Of a DNA stretch of 64,000 nt, positions 3,968 to 29,219 are shown one piece after another (the stretch's first letter is position 1; each line of letters begins with the position of its first letter). The DNA is from a virus. The notes under the pieces were generated by a model. It searched no databases and was not told the origin of the DNA. It worked only from the letters and a program-made list of their open reading frames with translations. The stretch lies in the IMG/VR virus record IMGVR_UViG_3300017987_000006, positions 32,001 through 96,000 of that record. The stretch is one strand, 5' to 3'. The position numbers were made by a program, and so were the translations under genes.

Positions 3968-4598
3968 GGTCACATTCGTCATTGGTGGGCTGATCGTCAT
4001 TCTGGCCATTGGCGGTGTCATCTACGGCATTGCCACGAAGGCCGGGGATGAAGGGTTTCACGCGGCGGCGGACGGGACAGTCCTGAAGTGGGACCGCTCG
4101 GCCCTGCCGCTGACTTGCTTTCACGACACATTCCCCAATGAGGAGCACCAGGCTGCGCTGAAGGAGGCGATCGGGAAGATCTCCAAGGCTGGGATATCGG
4201 CGTTCATGCCGTGCCAGCCTTGGATGGTCTCCGATCCCTTCCCCACAAAGCACGTCAAAAACACGGTCTTGATCAAGGTTGGCGCTCCGCCGGAGCCAGA
4301 ACGAGAAGTGGTGGTCACTTCTCCGTTCGAACCGAAGCACGGGGCGTCCACATTTTTAGCTCATGTCAAGGGAAAAGGGATCTACGGCGCGATCGTTTAT
4401 ATCATGCCAGACCTTGATAAGAAGCTGTACGGTAGGGTCTACCTGCACGAGCTTTTGCACGCCCTGGGCTTGACACACGACCGTGTTCGCGATTCGATTA
4501 TGTATCCGACAGCAGCAGAGAGGGCCACCGACCTGTCCAGTAAGGACACTAAACTACTGCTGAAAACCTACGGAGAGCGGAACGATGAGCCTAGCTGA
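3933..4598 (+). CDS. membrane-anchored matrixin/M10-like zinc metalloprotease
   Basis: N-terminal hydrophobic helix; HELLHALGLTH (HExxHxxGxxH) and SIMYP Met-turn. Confidence 0.85.
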   Translation: MQAWIEMIKQNKVTFVIGGLIVILAIGGVIYGIATKAGDEGFHAAADGTVLKWDRSALPLTCFHDTFPNEEHQAALKEAIGKISKAGISAFMPCQPWMVSDPFPTKHVKNTVLIKVGAPPEPEREVVVTSPFEPKHGASTFLAHVKGKGIYGAIVYIMPDLDKKLYGRVYLHELLHALGLTHDRVRDSIMYPTAAERATDLSSKDTKLLLKTYGERNDEPS

Positions 4599-5058
4599 TC
4601 AAATCTGCAGCACATTCGGCGCATTGAAGGTCAACCCGACGAGTAAACCCGCGGTGATCAAAGCCGTCCAGGGCGATACCAGGCTGCACGTATCTGTGCG
4701 CGTCGATCCAAAGAAGCTGAAGCCGTGGTTGGCCGCGATGGAGTACGTCTTGAAGAACAAGCAGGGGTGGGATGTTCACCTCTGCAAGCAGTACTTCATT
4801 CGAGGCGGCAAGATCATGTACGCCTGGAACTTCATCGCGCAGTGGGCGTCGGAGGACATTTCAGAGCAGGTTCTCACAAACATGCTCGAGGTGCTCAAGT
4901 TCGCCGCGCGCAATATGCCGAAGGTCGTGCACCAGATAACAGAGTATCCGCTGGCTGGGGCTGGAGACGATCGAAACAAGCCCGAGGGGTCCATGAACCC
5001 AAAGGCCAGCGGATACAAGCAGCGTGGGGCACACCCCATCAGGCTGGGAAGGAAGTGA
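4585..5058 (+). CDS. hypothetical protein
   Basis: 157-aa ORF coupled to neighbours. Confidence 0.65.
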   Translation: MSLADQICSTFGALKVNPTSKPAVIKAVQGDTRLHVSVRVDPKKLKPWLAAMEYVLKNKQGWDVHLCKQYFIRGGKIMYAWNFIAQWASEDISEQVLTNMLEVLKFAARNMPKVVHQITEYPLAGAGDDRNKPEGSMNPKASGYKQRGAHPIRLGRK

Positions 5059-5062
5059 TCTA

Positions 5063-5776
5063 ATGACTGAGTTCGGGCCGGAAACCAGTCTTCAGTATCA
5101 GAAGGACCTCTACGACAGGGAGAAGCGTGGAGAGACCATCGAGCCCCTGAGCGGGGAGGAGCTCGAGCGGGTCCAGAAATCGATTGAGGCAATGTCGAAG
5201 CTCCTCGCTGACGACTCGATTATCGCCAAGTACAAGCTCGAGGTTCAGTTCGGGAAGAATCGGACATCCAAGGGCTTCCCCTTCGCCGGTGTCTTGTCTT
5301 GTTGGGTGTCTGGATCTAAGCTTCACGGCGGTGGGGACGAGAAGATGTACGAGTGCCCCAACAAGCAGTGCAGGGCGTGGATTTTGCCATCAGACTTAGG
5401 ACACAGCGTGGTCAAGGACGAGAAAGGGAACCCCAGTGAGGTTCCTGTGGGGTACTGCGGCGGATGCGGATCGGTCTGGCCGGCAGAGCAGTTGATTGGA
5501 GAGCGATTCCTCAAACTGACGGAGCAGCATTGGGCGCAGGCCATTCTGCAGATCTTCGTGCGCCTGGAGATGAATGCCGACATCTACTTGAAGTACAGCC
5601 CAGAGGACGTGCGCTACAAGGCAATGATGGAGATGGCTCGCAATCGCGGTGGAGAAGAAATCGCCAAGGCTCGACGCCTAAGAGGGCTGAATATCTACCC
5701 ACTCCGCAACATCATCAAAGACACGAAGCACGGAGCTCCGTTGTATGGTAGGATCAGAGCCTTCATCAACGCATGA
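5063..5776 (+). CDS. hypothetical protein with Zn-ribbon (CPNKQC...CGGC)
   Basis: start reassigned to ATG 5063; two Cys pairs. Confidence 0.65.
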   Translation: MTEFGPETSLQYQKDLYDREKRGETIEPLSGEELERVQKSIEAMSKLLADDSIIAKYKLEVQFGKNRTSKGFPFAGVLSCWVSGSKLHGGGDEKMYECPNKQCRAWILPSDLGHSVVKDEKGNPSEVPVGYCGGCGSVWPAEQLIGERFLKLTEQHWAQAILQIFVRLEMNADIYLKYSPEDVRYKAMMEMARNRGGEEIAKARRLRGLNIYPLRNIIKDTKHGAPLYGRIRAFINA

Positions 5777-6144
5777 CCGAACCAAAGACCATAGGAGATC
5801 TCCTGGAGTTGTTCGCTCTCACAGAGCAGGAGAACTCCGTGTGGGGTGAGGTGGAGAGATTCCTTGACACATTTATCTCCACCGATACTTACCAGCCGTC
5901 CAAGGGTATAGCCACCGTTGTTGGAGACGGAGTCGTACCTGAGGACACAATCGTCCTCGTACGCGATAAGGTCCAAGATATCAGGACCGTGTTGAGCAGA
6001 GAGATCGAGCGGACCAAAAAGAAACCCATCAGTGCCTCGCCCAAAAAGAAGGCGACGGGCCGGAAAGCACCGAAGCGGAGCAAGCTAAATGTCAAAAAGA
6101 AAAAGCAAACCAAAAAGAAACGCAAAACCTCTGACCGCGCGTAA
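5773..6144 (+). CDS. hypothetical protein with Lys/Arg-rich C-terminal tail
   Basis: ATGA coupling; basic tail. Confidence 0.6.
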   Translation: MTEPKTIGDLLELFALTEQENSVWGEVERFLDTFISTDTYQPSKGIATVVGDGVVPEDTIVLVRDKVQDIRTVLSREIERTKKKPISASPKKKATGRKAPKRSKLNVKKKKQTKKKRKTSDRA

Positions 6145-7171
6145 GAAGGTTCTGCAGAGTAATGTACACCTCCAGCAGACCATCTCGGAAATGGTGAGGG
6201 ATTTCGACGCCCGGCGGAATGAGACCGAGAAGCGCATTTCTGAAAGCAACCAGCAGCTCTGGCGCAACCAGCAGGAGCAGAACGAGGGCCTGCGCATCGC
6301 TGAGAAACACGCAATGATCCAGCGACGTGTCTTCAATGATGCATTGGCTGGGTGCACGCGCGTCACGAGCATCGAGCGGAAGATCCAGGAGGGATCGGAC
6401 GAGGTGGAAGAGGTCCAGGTCATCGACTGGGACTGGTACGCCGAGCAGTTGATCAACAGCGCCGATTATAACGACTTCATCGTTGGCGTCCTGGTTCCGG
6501 AGGAGACCGTGAAGCAGAAGACCGAGCAGCGGTCTCAGCGCGCTCGTGCGCAGGTCCTGCACTACTGTGTCTCCAAGGCCCTGGCCAAGGATGAGGCAAA
6601 GCTCAGAGAGGCGCTGGAGGGGGATGGCCTGGAAGGTCTGCTCAAGGACTTCATGCCCAACGGCGTGGATTGGACGGACGAGATGAGTCTCGAGATGGAG
6701 GACATTGCCAAGGCCGGTCTGATGCTTTGGGAGCAGAAGAAGCAGGAAGCCATCAAACGGGCCAAGAAGGTCAGGATCCACAGCGCCATCGATAAGCTGG
6801 TCAGGGTTATGCCAGACGAGTCCATCAGGAAGACGGCAGATCGCATCGAGGCTGGAGAGCCCATCCTGAAGGATAAGGATGGGAACGAGATCGAGCTGAG
6901 CGATGAAGAGGCCAAGGAGGCCGCCGAATTGATGCGTTCCAAGATCAACGATCCCGAAGCCATCGAGAAGGCCAAGAATGAGCTGATGGAGGAGACGGCC
7001 GCTGTGGCCAAGATAGCCACAGAGGCCCAGGAAGCCATCGCCAAGGGGGACGCTGAGACGGCCGGTAGGAAGATGGCTGAGCTGGAAGAAAAGGTCGAGG
7101 AGGCCGAGGCCAAGGCCCCTGATGACCCAAACAAGCAGTTCCCGGAAGGGGCTTCGATCTTCGGAGGATAA
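6089..7171 (+). CDS. hypothetical coiled-coil-rich protein
   Basis: 360-aa ORF, E/K/A-rich helical composition. Confidence 0.7.
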   Translation: MSKRKSKPKRNAKPLTARKKVLQSNVHLQQTISEMVRDFDARRNETEKRISESNQQLWRNQQEQNEGLRIAEKHAMIQRRVFNDALAGCTRVTSIERKIQEGSDEVEEVQVIDWDWYAEQLINSADYNDFIVGVLVPEETVKQKTEQRSQRARAQVLHYCVSKALAKDEAKLREALEGDGLEGLLKDFMPNGVDWTDEMSLEMEDIAKAGLMLWEQKKQEAIKRAKKVRIHSAIDKLVRVMPDESIRKTADRIEAGEPILKDKDGNEIELSDEEAKEAAELMRSKINDPEAIEKAKNELMEETAAVAKIATEAQEAIAKGDAETAGRKMAELEEKVEEAEAKAPDDPNKQFPEGASIFGG

Positions 7172-7172
7172 C

Positions 7173-7361
7173 ATGCCGCGTATCATCAGGGGGACAGCCG
7201 AGAAGAAGTACAACATCGTCAAGACCCAACATCGTTCAAACATCAACAAGATGCGTTGCCAGGGCTGCAGGTTGGGTTACGCAGAGCGTGTTCAGACGGC
7301 CGGCGGGTGGGTCTATCGTTGCAACCGGTGCGGCCGGGAGTACACTGTAGACAAGCTGTAG
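7173..7361 (+). CDS. small Zn-ribbon protein
   Basis: GGAGGA RBS, ATG 7173; CQGC...CNRC. Confidence 0.7.
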   Translation: MPRIIRGTAEKKYNIVKTQHRSNINKMRCQGCRLGYAERVQTAGGWVYRCNRCGREYTVDKL

Positions 7362-7389
7362 AACTAAAGAGAGGTCGGTCGTCCTCTCT
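7360..7389 (-). terminator. hairpin with U-rich tail on minus strand
   Basis: AGAGAGG(7368-74)/CCTCTCT(7383-89) 7-bp stem; minus strand continues TTAGTTCT; adjacent hairpin AAACCC-gag-GGGTTT 7390-7404. Confidence 0.45.
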
Positions 7390-7473
7390 AAACCCGAGGG
7401 GTTTGGCTGATTGCGGTCTGGTCTTTACGTCACAGAGCACTCAAGTACCCACCTGATTAATCATTTTGTAGCT

Positions 7474-7500
7474 AAGAAAAGACAGCCCGGCCGGGCTGCC
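7474..7500 (-). terminator. intrinsic terminator for leftward transcription, at the distal end of the pentamer array
   Basis: minus strand GGCAGCCC-GGCC-GGGCTGTC followed by TTTTCTT. Confidence 0.7.
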
Positions 7501-7502
7501 TC

Positions 7503-8589
7503 AGGATGGCATGGATTGAGAAGGAGTGTCAGAGCGATCGGGTCTGGATCAGATCGTCGAACTGGTGGGGACCGGACCGCGTTGGGTTGTCGCCACGATC
7601 AGGTCTGGCAGGATATGGACTGTCGAGTTGGTTAGATAAGGGCTGTCGCGCCGTGACGGACTGCGCCGTGCGGAGGGGGGACGTCGACTAGGCGCGAGCG
7701 GGAGTGGTCAGGCATGGTTCGTCTGATCGCGGGGGACCGGGCAGGAGAAGGCTTGTCAGATCGAGAGGGATTGGCCTGTTCCAGCTCGTCGCGAAGGCTT
7801 GGCTTATCAGTTAGGCCCGGCCAGGTCTGTCAGCTGCGTGGTGCGTGAGGGCCGGATCGGGCATGTCGAATCGGATGACGACGAGGTGCGGGTGGGCCAG
7901 TCAGCTTGGGTGGGGTTGAGGAGCGACGGCATGGGATGTCGGCCGGGGCGGGCGTGAACTGGAGCGGGTTGTCGGCTTTGCCAGCACCGGCTCGCAACGG
8001 CTCGTAATGAATCGGACCGTCGAAGTGGATGGGCTAGGAGGGGAGAGGGGAGGCTTGTCAGCACGGGGTGAGGTGGATAGGTCAGGAATGTCGAGCAGTC
8101 TCGGCTGGTTTAGGGTTGGCTTGTCAGGCAGGAGCGGTCCGGTGTAGATCGGATTGTCCAGTCGGTTGGAACAGGCAAGGCATGTCGAGCAGGGAAGGCG
8201 CGGCTGATCTTGGCCCGTCGATTAGGATGGGTAGGGATTGGCTTGTCGGAATGGATCGAATGGGCTTGTCTATGCGGACGGGGACCGAGCGGACCAGGAG
8301 AGGTGAGTCGATCTGAAGTGGATGGGCGCGAACCGGAAGGGTCTGTCGAAAGGTTTGGGATGGGCGGGGACAAGACAGGTGCGTCAGAATGAGGGGGCTC
8401 GAGTGAGAGCGAGTGGGTGAGTCGACCCGGCTTGGTACGCGGTGGTCCGGCATGTCAGCTCGAGAGGAACCGGCTTGGTCTGTCGGACTGGTGTGGTGTG
8501 TATGGGACTGTCTCGTCGGGATCGGGTTGGTTTGATTTGGCGAGGTGTGTCAGGAGGGTCTAAGGTGGGTGGGACCGTGTTGGCTTGTA
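7503..8589. repeat. non-coding punctuated pentamer array: 33 units of (GR-NNN)k + GTC on plus strand (GAC-[NNN-YC]k on minus); candidate guide-RNA array for the adjacent RAMP
   Basis: 33 delimiters (31 GTC, 1 ATC, 1 GTA) from 7528 to 8587; 27 of 32 spacings equal 5k+3 nt; pentamer before the delimiter starts GG in 31/33; no credible ORF. Confidence 0.9.
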
Positions 8590-8611
8590 CGGGATAGTCT
8601 CAGTGTCTTGT

Positions 8612-9433
8612 CTAGGCCGCCTTGCCCTTTTTGGGAACCTTCGTCTTGGGAGCCTTCGTCTTGGGCTTGGGCAGCGAGCCCTTCTGGAGCTCCTCGACGG
8701 TGAGGAACTTGACGCGGCCGAAGCCCTGGGACCTCGAGCAGCCGAAGCCGTTATCTTGCGCCAGCTGCATGCAGTAGGTCAAGAACTCCTCGCTCATCCG
8801 CTTATCCTTCGGATCGGCAAACCATATCTCGAACTCGATGTAGGTACCGGGTTCCACGTAGTCGTGAAACTTGATCGTACTGCGCGGCCCCTGGGGGCCG
8901 ATGACGTGCGCCACCGTCTCTTCATGCCCGTCCGGCTCCACCAGCCGCTTCCTGTCCGCTTCCTTGTGTCCCTTGTCGTATAGGTAGACGCGGTCTGGGT
9001 GCTCGCAGCCCCGGATGAAGAATGAGTGCTGTAAGATCTGACGAACGCCGCGGTGTACGTTGGTCAGCCCCAGCACCGTTGCGGTCTCCTTGAAGCCGGC
9101 CTTGAGTTGCCGCGTCTCCAGAAAGATGCCATGTCCTTCCGGTTCGATCTTGTCCGGCTCCGCCTTGAACCCCGTCCAGGACTTGAGCTTCGCCTTCTCG
9201 CTCTCCTCTATGTCGTCATCGGACGACATCTCCTGGACGCGGGCTCTGGCCGCCTCCACGGTCTCGTCCTTGACCAGGCCCTTGCGGTGTCGTGCCTCGA
9301 GCATGGCCAGCTCGGATTCCGGATGTTTTGGCCAGCCGCCGAGCAGCCGGTTGGCCGTGACCATTGTCACCTTGTACTTCGTGTAGATGTTGACGTCGTG
9401 TTCGCGAACTAGTTCCTCAAAAGTCCTCTCCAT
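8612..9433 (-). CDS. solitary Cas7-like RAMP-superfamily protein
   Basis: beta1 YKVTMVTANRLLGGWP; LETRQLKAGFKETA (IPGSSLKGxxR-equivalent); HDYVEPGTYIEFEI; C-terminal G-rich loop GFGCSRSQGFGR; strong AAGGAG RBS with A/C-rich leader. Confidence 0.8.
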   Translation of the reverse strand: MERTFEELVREHDVNIYTKYKVTMVTANRLLGGWPKHPESELAMLEARHRKGLVKDETVEAARARVQEMSSDDDIEESEKAKLKSWTGFKAEPDKIEPEGHGIFLETRQLKAGFKETATVLGLTNVHRGVRQILQHSFFIRGCEHPDRVYLYDKGHKEADRKRLVEPDGHEETVAHVIGPQGPRSTIKFHDYVEPGTYIEFEIWFADPKDKRMSEEFLTYCMQLAQDNGFGCSRSQGFGRVKFLTVEELQKGSLPKPKTKAPKTKVPKKGKAA

Positions 9434-9473
9434 TTGAGATCTCCTTGTTATTGAGGTTGTTGTGAAAGGGAGC

Positions 9474-10154
9474 TTAGCGCTCCCAAAGAATTGTGAGTTC
9501 GTCGTCCTGTACGTGGATCCATCCGCCAGACGTCTTGTTCTGGTATACTTGCACTACTTGCTGGCACCAGGGCGGCGGCGGGCCGTTCCACATGGACAAG
9601 GCCCCTTCGAGCCTGACAAACTCTCCGGCGTCAGGCTCGAAACATCCCACAGGTAGCGTGACCCGCGGCTTGGGAGTCCTGGGCGTCCCCCAGGTCTTCG
9701 ATTTCGTCTTCGATTCCAGCAGCGCGATGTAGAAGTTCCTCAATGGGATACAAGCCCCTTTCTCGATCAATGTGACCTGTTTCTCTTTCCACTCGTCCTG
9801 CCACAGCTCCTCATCGATCTCGTGCAGCGTCCCATCCCGTCCGGCTTCTACGATCTTCCCCTCGTGTAGGAAAGCGTAGAGGTTTCCTCCTTTGCACCAA
9901 CCGAGGGCGGGGATCAAATCGCGCGGAACCATCTGTCCGATGTCGTCCCACTCCACCAGGTGCATGTAGAACGTTCTGTCCTCTGCACCACTCGCCCAGA
10001 CCTTGCGCCCATTGACGCTGATCTTCACATGACAGAAGTGTCCCAGCTGCTTGACGCGTCCTGAGCGCTTGATGATGCCGATCATGGGCAAATCCGGTTT
10101 GGGGCCTTCAACCCCAAACCAGATCTGCTTGACGTACCAACTGTACTCACTCAC
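9474..10154 (-). CDS. hypothetical protein immediately upstream of the RAMP gene
   Basis: 226-aa ORF, same strand, 40-nt gap. Confidence 0.7.
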   Translation of the reverse strand: MSEYSWYVKQIWFGVEGPKPDLPMIGIIKRSGRVKQLGHFCHVKISVNGRKVWASGAEDRTFYMHLVEWDDIGQMVPRDLIPALGWCKGGNLYAFLHEGKIVEAGRDGTLHEIDEELWQDEWKEKQVTLIEKGACIPLRNFYIALLESKTKSKTWGTPRTPKPRVTLPVGCFEPDAGEFVRLEGALSMWNGPPPPWCQQVVQVYQNKTSGGWIHVQDDELTILWER

Positions 10155-25469: not shown

Positions 25470-28400
25470 ATGGCGCAGGCAGCCCATCTCGATCTGAGGC
25501 TGTTCCTAGAGGGCGTGGAAGTCCCGGTGATCTCCGCGTCTATCCAGATAGCAGCCAATGCCCCCGCCTCGGCGTCTATCCAGGTCATTGCCACGGATAA
25601 GATCTTAGATCTGCTTCCACGTACCGTAGTACATCTGTTCTTCTACGACTACATCGGTGCTGGCCATGTAGCGATAGATCAGAAACGCGCACAGCTGTCG
25701 CAGATATCCTTTCAGGACTGGATCAATGAGAAGTACAAGCTGCTCTTTATGGGCGAGCTGGTGACGATCAAGTTCCAGAAGTCTCACGACCAGCGCGCAG
25801 TGATCTTGGAGTGCGCAGATTTCTCGAACTACTGGGACACGACGTTCCAGTACAACTTCGGCGGCAGCCTGTTTGCTGGGAGGCGGAAGGCAGCCTTCAT
25901 CGGAGCCAACTCGAACTTCTTCACCAGCATTCTTGGACATGGCGTTGGAACGGTCTCCAACCTTCTCAACGGGAAGTCTGTCAACTACCCGAACCTGAAG
26001 GGTCTGCTGGCGGGTGTGGTACGGATGTTGGAGGCTATCGGCGGGAGCTACTATGGAACTAATGTGTTCCGCGGGTGCAACGACTTCACGTCCATCGCCG
26101 AGCTCCGTTTGAAAATCTTGCAACAGATCACTGCGGCAGAGGCCGACACCAGCACATCACGCCTTTTCGCACGCAAGGCGTTTAACATGTGGATGAATCG
26201 GGCAACCCAGGGATTGGGTAAGCTGATATCATTCCGTGGCCTGGTGAAGACGTGTTTCAAGTTCATCTTCCACGAGGTGTACCCGTGCCCCGTAGCCAAG
26301 TACGTCCCTTCCAGTTCTGAGACGGTTAGAAGGCGTAGATATCTGAGCCCGCCAGAGGTGATCGTAAAGGGTGCCAACGATATCATCGAGAGGATAGACA
26401 GGACGAACAACATCTTGTCACGCTTTAGTTCGACAGCTCCGTTCGGGGAGCAGGTGGAGGTTGCCAAGGCATATCACACGTCGCACGAGAACTTGTACAA
26501 GGAGTTCAAGACATTTTACGCTTCTGCTGGAGCGGGGATAAGCGGGCCGACCACAAAGCGCATCGCTCAAGATCTGTCGAACGCGTTTGGTCCGCTGCGC
26601 CTCACGCACAAGATCATAAGGAGCGGAGACTTTCTTCAGGTCTTGAACGCCAAGCACTCCGAGCTGCAGCGGCACTACAACAGCGCCAAATCCGCCCTGC
26701 GTCGTCTAGTCAATCAGCGGCACCGAGTTACAGAGACACGTGTACGGGAGCACCAGGCCCGCGTAAACAACCAGATCTTCCGTCCGGACATCTGGTACTC
26801 CGCGCCGCCGCGTTGCAACGTGCTGTTCCCAGATCTGTACGATTCGTTCTCTTGGGCCAGGCAGTACCTCAGAGAGGTCAGTCGGTTGGAATTACAGACG
26901 CACAATGAGATCTTGGGGAACGATGCACTGTTCAATGGGCGCTATTATGCCCCGAACGTGGAGGACGTTCGGCGTGGGACAAAGCTCTCGAGCCGGCGTT
27001 TCGCACGGACGATCATGGATCACGAGCTATTCACAGGCATAATCCCTATGTTCGAGAGCATGACGGAGGCCAACCTCTTCGCGATGCGATCTAGTGCGGT
27101 GCAGAAGCAGGGATCTCCAGTGCCCTATGCGCAGCGCGCCGTCAACTTTCAGTATTTCAAGTACAAGTTTGAGTCACGCATGATGTCTGCGTCAGGCCGT
27201 TTCAACCCGATGTTCGTGGCCGGGTTTCCTGCGTTGATCATCGATCGACCAATGACTGAAGAGAACCTGCAAATCTCGTCCCTGCCTGTAGGAGATCAGA
27301 TCAGAGCATTGAATATCACGGCTGAGGAAGAGCCGACGAGATCAGATCTACTGCGGAGTCTTGTCGGCCCACAATATCTCGGGGTGCCGGCTTCTCTTTC
27401 GCACAATGTTTCTCAAGGAGGGGGGCGAACCGACTACCAGTTCATTCACGCTAGGGTACATCGGGAAAGCACAGAGTTTCTGGGGGTAGATCAAGTGGAG
27501 TGGTACAAGGTGGTCGGGACGCGGGACAAAAAGAAGGTCGTTGCCTATCCGATCACATTTCCGCCAAGGCGCGGCCAGCTCGGGCCCAGTGGGGGTACAA
27601 TCTCCAGGGTTGTCGATGTGACGAGCAGCAAGTCGGGGAAGACGTTGCCGGTGCTGGGGACCAACATCAAGGCGCGGGTGGGGACTGATATCCCGCCGTT
27701 TCTTATCAAGGAGATTACAACACAGATCAAGCGATCTATTCCAGCATATGCGAACTCGCCATTCTTCAAGCAACTTATCGGGCTAGACGATTTTTTGGAG
27801 GATTCGTCCCTGCGCCTGGGGGCATTCGAGGTGCATGAGTCTGTCCCATACAGGAAGAAGCAAAATGCCGATCTTCCTATCGAGGAGGCGATCAGACCGC
27901 CATGGATTTGGGATGGGTGGGCCGTACCCAAAATCACCGAGACCTACGATCAGCTGTTCGGCACGGGTGCCATCACAGACATTGATGGGTACGGGATCTT
28001 GGCGGATGCGAGTGGATCATCTAGCAGGACGCAATACCTCACAGTTGAGGAGCGTCTTGCGGCCGAGCAGCAAAACCGAGCTGCTAGCTCAGGCTCGACT
28101 AGGCGCTCGCCGGCAGCGGGCAGGAGCGAGCGGGATGTGGAGATCACAAGGGCTTCGAGGTATCAGGCCGCCCTTCTCCTGCTGGAGACGGAGAAGACCA
28201 TCGAGAACTCGATCGACTTCCTGGTCAGGTCCTACAGCTTTGTCAAGGTCAACAACATGGACGTGGGGGAGTTCCTCAAGGCTTACAACTGGCGTCCGGT
28301 GGCGACGATGGTGGACATCCTCGGCGGGGCAGATCTAAGCATCAAGCAGACCGAAGTCAAGGCCACGAAGATGGTCAGGAGGAAGTACGTCAAGCGGAAG

Positions 28401-28724
28401 GGGCGTACCGTGGTGTACAGGGATGCAAATGGGGCGATCACTGATACCGCCGAGGAGTATCCGGTGTATGGCACGAGATACGTTGAGAAGCCCATCAAGC
28501 GGATCGGATATGTTGTTGACGGGACGGAGGGGTTTCACAGCAGGGCTTTTGGGGATGTGGAAGATCTATTCGGGTTGGTGAGCCCTACCGTCACACGTGT
28601 TCTGGGCTTATCGAGTAACTCGAGCAGAAAGATCGCCGCCAGGATGGATGTGAGGAAGCGGCGTCGTGCGGTCGTCAAGACCTATGTCGCTGAATTGACG
28701 GGGTCTAAGGGACTCGTGGGGTGA
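25470..28724 (+). CDS. putative baseplate hub (gp27/late control D-like)
   Basis: 1084 aa; N-terminal LRLFLEGVEVPVISASIQ...ASASIQV...L..RTVVHLF resembles hub N-termini; synteny. Confidence 0.55.
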   Translation: MAQAAHLDLRLFLEGVEVPVISASIQIAANAPASASIQVIATDKILDLLPRTVVHLFFYDYIGAGHVAIDQKRAQLSQISFQDWINEKYKLLFMGELVTIKFQKSHDQRAVILECADFSNYWDTTFQYNFGGSLFAGRRKAAFIGANSNFFTSILGHGVGTVSNLLNGKSVNYPNLKGLLAGVVRMLEAIGGSYYGTNVFRGCNDFTSIAELRLKILQQITAAEADTSTSRLFARKAFNMWMNRATQGLGKLISFRGLVKTCFKFIFHEVYPCPVAKYVPSSSETVRRRRYLSPPEVIVKGANDIIERIDRTNNILSRFSSTAPFGEQVEVAKAYHTSHENLYKEFKTFYASAGAGISGPTTKRIAQDLSNAFGPLRLTHKIIRSGDFLQVLNAKHSELQRHYNSAKSALRRLVNQRHRVTETRVREHQARVNNQIFRPDIWYSAPPRCNVLFPDLYDSFSWARQYLREVSRLELQTHNEILGNDALFNGRYYAPNVEDVRRGTKLSSRRFARTIMDHELFTGIIPMFESMTEANLFAMRSSAVQKQGSPVPYAQRAVNFQYFKYKFESRMMSASGRFNPMFVAGFPALIIDRPMTEENLQISSLPVGDQIRALNITAEEEPTRSDLLRSLVGPQYLGVPASLSHNVSQGGGRTDYQFIHARVHRESTEFLGVDQVEWYKVVGTRDKKKVVAYPITFPPRRGQLGPSGGTISRVVDVTSSKSGKTLPVLGTNIKARVGTDIPPFLIKEITTQIKRSIPAYANSPFFKQLIGLDDFLEDSSLRLGAFEVHESVPYRKKQNADLPIEEAIRPPWIWDGWAVPKITETYDQLFGTGAITDIDGYGILADASGSSSRTQYLTVEERLAAEQQNRAASSGSTRRSPAAGRSERDVEITRASRYQAALLLLETEKTIENSIDFLVRSYSFVKVNNMDVGEFLKAYNWRPVATMVDILGGADLSIKQTEVKATKMVRRKYVKRKGRTVVYRDANGAITDTAEEYPVYGTRYVEKPIKRIGYVVDGTEGFHSRAFGDVEDLFGLVSPTVTRVLGLSSNSSRKIAARMDVRKRRRAVVKTYVAELTGSKGLVG

Positions 28725-28728
28725 TCTC

Positions 28729-28760
28729 TTGTCATCCGGCGCGCGGAAGGAGTATAAATA
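28729..28760 (+). promoter_or_regulatory. candidate promoter
   Basis: TTGTCA-18-TATAAA; contains TATAAATA. Confidence 0.4.
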
Positions 28761-28763
28761 AGC

Positions 28764-29219
28764 ATGGAAATTACCAGGCTAGAAGGTCTGATGGACGAGC
28801 TGGAAAAGATCGCCGCTTCTCGCGTGGCAGCTCCGTTCATGCAGCGACGTGAAGGTATCCGCCCCATCCGCGTGCACAATCTCCTTGGGCGCGACACGGT
28901 AACGCAAGATCCGGAGATGGAGCCTGCCGAACCACCAGAGGCAGATCAAGCTGTAGATGGTGGTGCGGAAAAGACCGCGCGGGAAAAGCCCTTCAAGGAA
29001 AAAGCTCTGGAGACCTTTGCGAAGGCCCGTCCATATGTGGCTAGTGGCGTGAAGGCCGGGCTTCCGATGGCTGCGATCGGGAATCTCACCGTAGGACGTA
29101 AGACCGGAATCGTGGCCGGGACTGTGGGAACGGCCGCTGGTGTGGTCAACGAAGCGCTGAAACAGTGGGCCGAGAAGAACAAGCGCAAGAGTGTCGCCAA
29201 GAAGATCTTGGAGGATTGA
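28764..29219 (+). CDS. hypothetical protein with DELEKIA motif
   Basis: LEGLMDELEKIAAS. Confidence 0.65.
   Translation: MEITRLEGLMDELEKIAASRVAAPFMQRREGIRPIRVHNLLGRDTVTQDPEMEPAEPPEADQAVDGGAEKTAREKPFKEKALETFAKARPYVASGVKAGLPMAAIGNLTVGRKTGIVAGTVGTAAGVVNEALKQWAEKNKRKSVAKKILED

What the first reader, a model, noticed from the sequence alone, without database searches (positions are those of the whole stretch)
7503..9433. Solitary Cas7/RAMP gene coupled to a non-CRISPR punctuated RNA array: candidate phage-encoded RNA-guided system
Seen: a 273-aa protein with RAMP hallmarks (beta1 followed by GG.P, an IPGSSLKG-like segment, and the C-terminal G-rich loop GFGCSRSQGFG). Its stop codon lies 22 nt from a 1.1-kb array of strictly phased 5-nt modules. 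There is no cas1/2/3/5/6/8/10 and no repeat-spacer CRISPR in the window. Established: Cas7-family RAMPs oligomerise along guide RNA with a fixed nucleotide step per subunit. Inference: each pentamer is one RAMP footprint (fixed dinucleotide gripped by protein, variable bases displayed for target reading), and each delimiter-bounded unit is one guide, giving ~32 guides. This recalls the VIPR systems as I remember them (solo RAMP plus GGY/NN RNA acting against competing phages; unverified recall). Here the fixed part is only G-R, three positions vary, and units carry a 3-nt delimiter, so it may be a distinct subtype or code.
Basis: partly seen in the sequence, partly recalled or inferred. Interest (0 to 1): 0.97.

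Follow-up and report, generated by a model that had tools for sequence, protein, structure and literature searches.

The report
Phage VIPR-like RAMP plus guide array
A complete 178-kb phage genome carries a lone Cas7-like protein gene followed directly by a 1.1-kb string of about 32 short, five-base-phased units. It is a divergent relative of the VIPR RNA-guided systems described in 2026, and its guide RNA is probably read from the C-rich strand rather than the G-rich one.

Summary
ORF 8612-9433 (-) folds as a single-RRM Cas7/Csm3-like RAMP (VIA Z 13.8). Region 7503-8600 holds 199 pentamers in about 32 units of 5n+3 nt, far beyond chance.

The pairing is conserved. About 28 non-redundant homologous phage loci (22-68% identity) carry the same grammar next to the gene, with no shared unit content.

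The family is a remote homologue of the published Vipr proteins (hhalign 95%, E 4e-8, against the SUSP1 clade). It is therefore a VIPR-type system (bioRxiv 10.64898/2026.04.26.720920), not a categorically new one.

It differs from the characterised type II:
- Units are short (4-7 repeats).
- Units are separated only by a 3-nt punctuation, with no structured tail.
- Three positions vary per pentamer.
- There is no conserved accessory gene.
- The arrays are always C-rich on the gene's strand and abut its stop codon or ribosome-binding site.

I infer that gene and array are co-transcribed as (NNNYC)n-GAC, a CC-scaffold guide. One locus carries a canonical Vipr with GGC/NN RNAs beside this type on the same strand.

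No targets were found, so the reading rule and function remain inferred. This scan has noted VIPR-like loci before in many other genomes, including a similar jumbo-phage array.

The parts
8612..9433 (-). Vipr-like solo RAMP gene (273 aa). It has a single RRM core, a beta-hairpin thumb tipped by the invariant QGPRS (181-185), the G-loop NGFGCSRSQGFG (228-239) and a Lys-rich C-terminal tail.
   Evidence: ORF. 20 homologues with these invariant motifs. AF2 pLDDT 84. Csm3 6ae2_B Z 13.8, rmsd 3.9 over 164 residues; Cmr4, Csf2 and type VII Cas7 at Z 11-13. Profile against PDB Csm3 E 1e-5. hhalign against SUSP1-type Vipr 95%, E 3.7e-8.
9434..9473 (-). Short leader between the upstream 226-aa ORF and the RAMP gene. 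It holds the RBS AAGGAG (9441-9446) and a small hairpin.
   Evidence: Read directly from the sequence. No sigma-70-like promoter was found in 7000-9800.
7503..8600 (-). Guide array: about 32 units, 199 pentamers. It reads GTC-(GRNNN)n on the + strand, which is (NNNYC)n-GAC on the - strand, the strand inferred to be transcribed.
   Evidence: The same grammar lies beside homologues. Strand inference.
8019..8056 (-). Example of a clean 38-nt unit: delimiter plus 7 pentamers.
   Evidence: HMM parse.
8184..8216 (-). Example of a clean 33-nt unit: delimiter plus 6 pentamers.
   Evidence: HMM parse.
7470..7502 (-). Intrinsic terminator on the - strand that abuts the last pentamer of the array. It is a 10-bp GC-rich stem with a GGCC loop, followed by a UUUUCUU tract.
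   Evidence: dG -19.3 kcal/mol, z -2.4. My own terminator scan gave -14.3. On the + strand no U tract follows it.

Best explanation
This is a VIPR-type, phage-encoded RNA-guided system of a divergent clade.

Proposed mechanism:
1. The RAMP gene and the array are transcribed together on the - strand and terminate at the hairpin at 7470-7502.
2. The RNA is a string of about 32 guides, each (NNNYC)4-7 and closed by GAC.
3. By analogy with the solved SUSP1 Vipr filament, one RAMP protomer binds one pentamer. It sequesters the constant dinucleotide (here Y-C, mostly CC) with the G-loop and thumb, and displays the variable bases.
4. The 3-nt punctuation throws the next unit out of register. Filaments therefore stop there, giving discrete complexes of 5-7 protomers, about one turn of the six-subunit helix seen for SUSP1. 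The exposed junction may then be cut.
5. Each complex would recognise a short gapped sequence in foreign DNA, most likely in rival phages or mobile elements, and block it.

Shown here: the RAMP fold, remote homology to Vipr, a conserved gene-array pairing with hypervariable content, and a tight same-strand coupling of array and gene.

Inferred: which strand is the RNA, one protomer per pentamer, register-break processing, DNA targeting, and the anti-competitor role.
For: Fold: AF2 pLDDT 84. Csm3, Cmr4, Csf2 and Cas7 score Z 10-13.8.

Homology to Vipr: hhalign of 164 family members against 120 SUSP1-type Viprs gives 95%, E 3.7e-8, over 140 columns. It aligns helix 1, the thumb Arg (R184 to R138) and the G-loop Arg (R234 to R179).

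Gene-array pairing: 5-nt arrays with GTC-type punctuation and runs of 4-8 pentamers lie next to the gene in about 28 non-redundant loci down to about 23% identity. Unit contents are never shared between loci.

Strand:
- Arrays of this type were C-rich on the gene strand in every locus where one was detected.
- Upstream arrays end 12-55 nt before the start codon, with only an RBS between, in 7 loci.
- Downstream arrays start 4-62 nt after the stop in 14 other loci, and about 11-22 nt after it in the window.
- The window has a strong - strand terminator exactly at the distal end of the array. L006, L010 and L015 have the same arrangement.
- L016 has a canonical Vipr (E 7e-12 to the SUSP1-type HMM) with same-strand GGC/NN RNAs, and this family's RAMP followed by a GAC-(NNNCC)n mini-array. 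All are on one strand.

Known mechanism of VIPR.
Against: - There is no RNA evidence for either strand.
- G-strand terminator-like hairpins sit between gene and array in L001, L027 and L039.
- The canonical vrRNA constant part is GG. The G-rich strand here would fit the published NNNGG variant without any change of protein specificity.
- No natural target was found under any rule tried.
- Direct HMM searches do not connect this family to SUSP1 Vipr. Only profile-profile comparison does.
- The Vipr residues that read the two guanines (D177, W178) are not conserved. That fits a changed specificity but also weakens the analogy.
Confidence: 0.68

Rival explanations
1. It is the same VIPR-type system, but the guide RNA is the G-rich + strand, GUC-(GRNNN)n. 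That is the published NNNGG-type vrRNA consensus, transcribed antisense or convergent to the RAMP gene.
For: Canonical vrRNAs carry GG as the protein-bound constant part, and NNNGG variants are reported. In the window a + strand gene block (5024-7361) runs towards the array with only a weak + terminator. L001, L027 and L039 have G-strand hairpin plus T-run sites at the G-strand 3' end of the array.
Against: In 7 loci the array abuts the RBS of the RAMP gene (12-55 nt). A G-strand promoter would then have to lie inside the coding sequence. The antisense orientation would have to be conserved in about 28 loci with gaps as small as 4-22 nt. In L016 and L017 canonical G-type RNAs are co-oriented with the genes while this array type is inverted. 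Several G-strand 'terminators' are artefacts of Lys-codon runs.
Confidence: 0.2
2. The array is not a store of guides. It is a cis-acting or scaffold element for the RAMP, for example an RNA or DNA platform on which the RAMP polymerises for autoregulation, genome compaction or protection, with no sequence-specific targets.
For: No targets were found (and the eight exact collection scans). The variable positions are close to maximal entropy, with no detectable coding-like signal.
Against: The variable positions turn over completely between loci while the grammar, including discrete units of 4-8 repeats, is kept. That is the signature of a programmable specificity store. The homologous VIPR systems are shown to be programmable guides.
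Confidence: 0.08
3. It is an orphan fragment of a type III/IV CRISPR-Cas system captured by a phage (a Csm3/Csf2-like Cas7), and the adjacent G/C-skewed region is unrelated.
For: The best solved structural matches are Csm3, Cmr4 and Csf2. The family profile hits Csm3 at E 1e-5.
Against: The genome has no Cas1, no other RAMP and no CRISPR repeats. The family has 1,506 clusters. In every one of the roughly 40 loci fetched here the gene is a lone RAMP, and about 28 non-redundant ones carry the 5-nt array. Pfam RAMP models do not match.
Confidence: 0.02

Closest known systems
VIPR type II (Escherichia phage SUSP1; Pseudomonas fulva prophage). Vipr plus vap1 plus vrRNA. bioRxiv 10.64898/2026.04.26.720920 and .720927
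   Same: It is phage-encoded. It has a small single-RRM RAMP with G-loop and thumb and no cas genes or CRISPR array. The flanking non-coding arrays have a strict 5-nt period, in which a constant part alternates with hypervariable bases. The proteins are remote homologues.
   Different: In SUSP1 the vrRNAs have 9-16 YNNGG repeats followed by an invariant structured tail, and the G-rich strand is the gene's strand. Here units have 4-7 repeats and are separated only by 3 nt. There is no tail, three variable positions, and a constant dinucleotide that is C-rich on the gene strand. The protein is 273 aa against 195 aa. The residues equivalent to the G-contacting D177/W178 are C/A and S. There is no conserved vap gene.
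Other VIPR architectures named in the same preprint: 'staggered' arrays (fig. S18) and NNNGG / YNNNG / NNNNG repeat variants. Also the non-canonical period-5 clusters of 10.64898/2026.10.21.760802
   Same: Back-to-back units, in which the end of one marks the start of the next, and relaxed constant parts are both reported.
   Different: The figures and data tables are not available to me, so I cannot tell whether this clade is among the seven types. The text does not mention 3-nt punctuation, 4-7-repeat units, a C-rich RNA strand or arrays of 30-100 units. The Evo-PIN paper's non-canonical motifs are fixed trinucleotides repeated about 10 times.
Cas7 backbone subunits of class 1 CRISPR effectors (Csm3, Cmr4, Csf2, type VII Cas7)
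   Same: The fold is the same (Z 10-13.8), with G-loop sequence similarity. In these complexes Cas7 subunits polymerise along the guide with a fixed step.
   Different: Those use a 6-nt step on a repeat-spacer crRNA, need Cas5/Cas6/large subunits, and are encoded in cas operons. None of that is present here.

Membership tests
VIPR (Vipr + vrRNA) | Vipr protein: a minimal single-RRM RAMP with a glycine-rich loop and a thumb | tested here: met
   AF2 model with pLDDT 84. It has one RRM core, a beta-hairpin at 169-193 and the G-loop at 228-239. Cas7-type matches reach Z 13.8.
VIPR (Vipr + vrRNA) | Sequence homology to the published Vipr clade (SUSP1 / X1U2U4 group) | tested here: met
   Profile-profile hhalign gives 95%, E 3.7e-8, over 140 columns. 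Single-sequence hhalign and HMM searches give no hit, so the relationship is remote.
VIPR (Vipr + vrRNA) | Encoded mainly in viruses, in a minimal locus without cas genes or a CRISPR array | tested here: met
   Complete 178-kb virus record with terminal repeats. No Cas1, no Pfam RAMP, no CRISPR-like repeats. The homologues are on viral contigs.
VIPR (Vipr + vrRNA) | Non-coding array of tandem 5-nt units in which a constant part alternates with hypervariable bases | tested here: met
   199 pentamers. Two constrained and three near-maximal-entropy positions. Conserved beside homologues.
VIPR (Vipr + vrRNA) | The constant part is GGY on the RNA (canonical GGY/NN) | tested here: not met
   No pyrimidine preference at the third position (A .31, C .27, G .23, T .20). 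The GG-like dinucleotide lies on the strand opposite to the gene, and the inferred RNA carries Y-C. The preprint allows 'a related consensus' such as NNNGG.
VIPR type II | vrRNA of 9-16 repeats capped by an invariant structured 3' tail | tested here: not met
   Units have 4-7 repeats bounded by 3 nt. No conserved tail, no Rfam match and no excess structure.
VIPR (Vipr + vrRNA) | An accessory vap gene beside vipr (six of the seven types) | tested here: not met
   The neighbours differ between loci. The upstream 226-aa ORF has no Pfam match.
VIPR (Vipr + vrRNA) | Guides match DNA of competing mobile elements by the 1-nt skip rule | tested here: inconclusive
   No matches above decoys in the own genome plus about 40 loci under 5-7 rules. 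Eight exact 21-base scans of IMG/VR, metagenome and GTDB collections returned nothing. The canonical 2-of-5 rule gives too few specified bases to scan at that scale.
VIPR (Vipr + vrRNA) | The array RNA is expressed and co-purifies with the protein | not testable with these tools
   Needs sRNA-seq and a pull-down.
VIPR 'staggered' arrays (fig. S18 of the preprint) | Consecutive vrRNAs abut, the end of one marking the start of the next, with a 1-nt overlap | tested here: inconclusive
   Units abut with only a 3-nt (in some loci 4- or 8-nt) junction. The figure is not available and processed ends are unknown.
Class 1 CRISPR-Cas (type III/IV) | cas operon (Cas10/Csf1, Cas5, Cas6, adaptation genes) and a repeat-spacer array | tested here: not met
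   Only one RAMP gene in the genome (C1 hit).

The most novel reading that the evidence does not exclude
This is a large, mostly metagenomic sister family of Vipr (about 1,500 clusters at 50% identity) that uses a different guide chemistry and layout from the published GGY/NN code. The guide is a C-rich RNA co-transcribed with the RAMP. Its constant part is a Y-C dinucleotide, and three bases per 5-nt step are available for reading, possibly a triplet code. Dozens of one-turn guides are strung together and separated only by register-breaking 3-nt punctuation. The family is orthogonal to canonical Vipr, since the two coexist in one locus.
Probability: 0.45. Interest if true: 0.8.

Novelty: new variant of a known kind. 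Interest (0 to 1): 0.62.

Why it matters
VIPR systems are a months-old discovery. They are a programmable, PAM-free, non-contiguous way of recognising DNA, and they are proposed as the ancestor of CRISPR effectors.

A widespread sister clade would show that the Vipr scaffold can be re-tuned to other RNA codes if it has these features:
- a different constant dinucleotide;
- three variable bases per step;
- short, punctuated guides that need no structured handle.

It would offer orthogonal parts for multiplexed silencing: about 32 guides in 1.1 kb from one transcript. It would also give a natural test of how filament register defines guide length.

If the published seven types already contain this clade, the value here is smaller. 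What remains is a new member, plus an argument from locus anatomy about which strand is the RNA.

Tried and rejected
Searches that returned nothing:
- Pfam, PHROGs and Rfam gave nothing useful for the protein or the array.
- Single-sequence hhalign and a 164-sequence HMM did not reach SUSP1 Vipr.
- Pfam on the neighbours found only a zinc ribbon.
- Relatives of the genome cannot be drawn for a virus record.

Signals that were weak, confounded or ambiguous:
- Stop-codon depletion in the variable triplets was tested as a sign of codon-aligned guides. It was weak and is confounded by TA avoidance.
- Dinucleotide dependence between variable positions was tested as a way to decode which bases are adjacent in the target. 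It is confounded because the same bases are adjacent in the array DNA itself.
- Counts of terminators on the two strands across 35 arrays were ambiguous: 4 on the C strand against 6 on the G strand. Several G-strand calls lie in Lys-codon runs.
- Orientation of far-side neighbour genes was 18 co-directional against 10 opposite, which is only suggestive.

Target searches:
- The window's guides (7 rules) and 315 guides from all arrays (5 rules) were searched against the own genome and all fetched loci. They did no better than shuffled decoys.
- Exact scans were run for four units, with variable triplets placed at steps of 3, 4 or 5. All returned zero hits in IMG/VR, JGI metagenomes and GTDB genomes.

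Array variants:
- Three other contigs from other samples are identical over the gene and array.

Rejected readings:
- An ordinary tandem repeat: TRF reports none spanning the array, and units are unrelated in content.
- A coding region: a 5-nt period, with only short spurious ORFs.
- A CRISPR array.
Full report
**What is there**

The window is part of a complete 178,259-bp virus record with direct terminal repeats. ORF 8612-9433 on the - strand encodes a 273-aa protein with a good RBS. The region 7503-8600 follows its stop codon after a gap of 11-22 nt. That region is G-rich on the + strand and has a strong 5-nt period with regular phase slips: autocorrelation is 0.40 at lag 5 and 0.38 at lags 28, 33 and 38.

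A small HMM parses the region into 199 pentamers and 32 three-base delimiters, with 8 nt left over. On the + strand each unit reads GTC followed by GRNNN pentamers (P1 G 0.89; P2 G 0.67 / A 0.20; P3-P5 at 1.93-1.98 bits). Most units have 6 or 7 pentamers.

Started from random emissions, the model recovers the same grammar. It prefers a 3-nt delimiter by more than 100 log units over 1, 2, 4 or 5 nt, and by about 240 over shuffled sequence. TRF reports no tandem repeat covering the array, and unit contents are as unlike each other as shuffles. The array therefore has a conserved grammar without repeated sequence. The genome has only this one array, no Cas1 and no Pfam RAMP match, and the window has no CRISPR-like repeats.

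**The protein**

Pfam and PHROGs do not recognise the protein, apart from weak Cas6_C G-loop hits. With an alignment of 20 homologues, AlphaFold2 gives a confident model (pLDDT 84, pTM 0.75). The model has one RRM core, a long beta-hairpin at 169-193 whose tip is the invariant QGPRS, and a C-terminal glycine-rich loop.

A Foldseek-independent search of the PDB puts Cas7-type RAMPs on top:
- Csm3 6ae2_B: Z 13.8, rmsd 3.9 over 164 residues
- Csm3 9g9a_D: Z 13.2
- Cmr 6s6b_I: Z 12.7
- Csf2 7jhy_e: Z 12.0
- type VII Cas7: Z 11.9

Foldseek agrees, with E about 1e-6. At the sequence level the family profile hits Csm3 at E 1e-5 over the G-loop region. BFVD holds similar solo viral RAMPs. The family is large: 1,506 clusters at 50% identity match the profile at E <= 1e-3, and 904 at E <= 1e-10.

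**Relation to VIPR**

VIPR systems were described in 2026. They consist of a minimal RAMP (Vipr), usually an accessory gene, and vrRNAs made of 5-nt repeats whose GGY part is buried by the protein. The NN part reads double-stranded DNA with one base skipped per repeat. They are mostly phage-encoded and aimed at rival mobile elements. Seven types, relaxed repeat consensuses (NNNGG, YNNNG, NNNNG), 'staggered' arrays and ribozyme-interspersed arrays are mentioned.

I located the SUSP1 locus in KT454805. vipr is at 28474-29061 (-) and vap at 28031-28471 (-). The YNNGG repeats are on the same strand as vipr.

A search with SUSP1 Vipr gave 529 relatives. Profile-profile comparison of 120 of them with 164 members of the present family gives 95% probability, E 3.7e-8, over 140 columns. 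It aligns helix 1, the thumb arginine (R184 with R138) and the G-loop arginine (R234 with R179). The two residues that contact the guanines in SUSP1 Vipr, D177 and W178, align with C/A232 and S233. Ordinary HMM searches do not cross between the two families. They are distinct but homologous.

**The pairing is conserved**

I fetched the loci of nine close homologues, one cultured phage (Microcystis phage Mae-JY09, 29% identity) and 30 IMG/VR loci at 22-45% identity. A 5-nt periodic array lies next to the gene in about 28 non-redundant loci.

The grammar is the same in all of them: runs of 4-8 pentamers separated by GTC. Lineage variants of the junction are GTCG, GTC followed by a GC pentamer, and GTTGCAA. 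Arrays reach 2.9 kb (L001). No unit is shared between arrays of different loci, even at 65% protein identity. Three further contigs from other samples are identical to the window over the gene and array. Conserved grammar with freely changing content is what a store of programmable guides looks like.

**Which strand is the RNA**

In every locus where this array type was detected, it is C-rich on the coding strand of the RAMP gene. This is the opposite of SUSP1. Locus anatomy argues that the C-rich strand is transcribed with the gene.

- In seven loci the array lies upstream and ends 12-55 nt before the start codon, with only a Shine-Dalgarno sequence between: L020, L021, L024, L035, L036, L037 and L039. 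There is no room for a promoter for the gene or for a divergent promoter for a G-rich RNA.
- In 14 other loci the array starts 4-62 nt after the stop codon, and in the window about 11-22 nt after it.
- In the window a strong - strand terminator (dG -19.3, z -2.4) abuts the last pentamer. L006, L010 and L015 have C-strand terminators at the same place.
- L016 is the most telling. It holds a canonical Vipr (E 7e-12 to the SUSP1-type HMM) with GGC/NN vrRNAs on the gene strand. Right beside it is a member of the present family (E 6.5e-76), followed 4 nt after its stop by a GAC-(NNNCC)n mini-array. Everything is on one strand.
- L017 also has a canonical G-type RNA co-oriented with the genes.

Against this, L001, L027 and L039 have hairpin plus T-run sites that would end a G-rich transcript. 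In the window a + strand gene block points into the array. There is no RNA data. I put the C-rich reading at about 0.75-0.8 given that this is a guide array. The C-rich RNA is also intrinsically unstructured (-57 against -107 kcal/mol per 300 nt).

**Mechanism**

This part is inferred. By analogy with the SUSP1 filament (one protomer per repeat, constant bases buried, variable bases displayed, six subunits per turn), each pentamer would be one RAMP footprint. The 3-nt insertion, which is 4 or 8 nt in some lineages, shifts the register. A cooperative filament therefore cannot continue across it. This would define guides of 4-7 protomers, about one helical turn, without any structured handle.

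The substitutions at the two G-reading positions fit a changed constant dinucleotide. The residue aligned with W178 differs (N or D instead of S) in the three loci whose junction is GTCGC. Those loci may simply be related, so this is a lead only.

**Targets**

None were found. The window's guides and 315 guides from all arrays were searched against the own genome and all fetched loci under five to seven spacing rules. They do no better than shuffled decoys. The system does not obviously target its own genome or the vipr neighbourhoods of relatives.

Eight exact scans of large collections were run with the 21 variable bases of four units, at steps of 3, 4 or 5. All returned nothing. The canonical two-base rule leaves only 10-14 specified bases per unit, too few for collection-scale scanning with the tools at hand. 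The reading rule, the nature of the target (DNA or RNA) and the biological role therefore rest on analogy.

**Verdict**

It is not categorically new, because VIPR is described, and this scan has already noted VIPR-like loci in at least 213 genomes, including a similar jumbo-phage array.

Relative to what the preprints state in text, this clade differs in:
- unit length;
- punctuation;
- the number of variable positions;
- the lack of a tail and of a vap gene;
- the strand, and hence probably the chemistry of the constant dinucleotide.

I cannot see the preprint's figures or tables. I estimate about even odds that the clade is already inside one of the seven types, perhaps drawn as NNNGG on the opposite strand.

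Noticed in passing
L016:3370-5890: One IMG/VR contig carries two RAMP systems side by side on one strand. One is a canonical SUSP1-type Vipr (ORF 4161-4736) with five short GGC/NN vrRNAs that end in a conserved AAG.CAAGG tail. The other is a member of the present family (4974-5636) with its own GAC-(NNNCC)n mini-array. This suggests the two are orthogonal.
   Followed up: partly
L017:1-165: A canonical GGC/NN-type pentamer RNA lies at the contig start, on the same strand as and 2 kb upstream of a RAMP of the present family. That RAMP has a 1.9-kb C-rich array. No canonical vipr gene is seen on the fetched piece.
   Followed up: no
window 9225-9433 and family alignment A1 (protein residues 1-70 and 250-273): The RAMP has a helical insertion between beta1 and the next strand, and a Lys-rich C-terminal tail that is kept as a basic tail across the family. 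Invariant H136, H176, K188 and near-invariant H190 could form a nuclease-like site. Their positions in the model were not examined.
   Followed up: no
L008, L015, L017 against the other loci: The three loci whose unit junction is GTCGC have N or D instead of S at the G-loop position that aligns with Vipr W178. This may be protein-RNA co-variation or simply shared ancestry.
   Followed up: partly
window 7122-7361 (+): A 79-aa zinc-ribbon protein (two CxxC pairs; Pfam Zn_ribbon_4, below cut-off) is the last gene of the + strand block that converges on the array. The same gene is present in all identical contigs.
   Followed up: no
L003:6001-10576: This ENA contig contains a perfect inverted duplication of the RAMP gene and its neighbours around position 8300. 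It looks like an assembly artefact rather than biology. No array was detected there.
   Followed up: no
L001:811-1185; L002:1863-2306; L006:1960-2400: Related phages carry an Acb2/Tad1-hairpin protein (an anti-CBASS/Thoeris sponge family) or a 'Lockin' domain protein within 5 kb of the RAMP. This hints that the neighbourhood collects counter-defence genes.
   Followed up: no
window 8631-8665: A 15-nt tandem repeat (2.3 copies) lies inside the 3' end of the RAMP gene. It encodes the repeated KPKTKAPKTKVPK tail.
   Followed up: no
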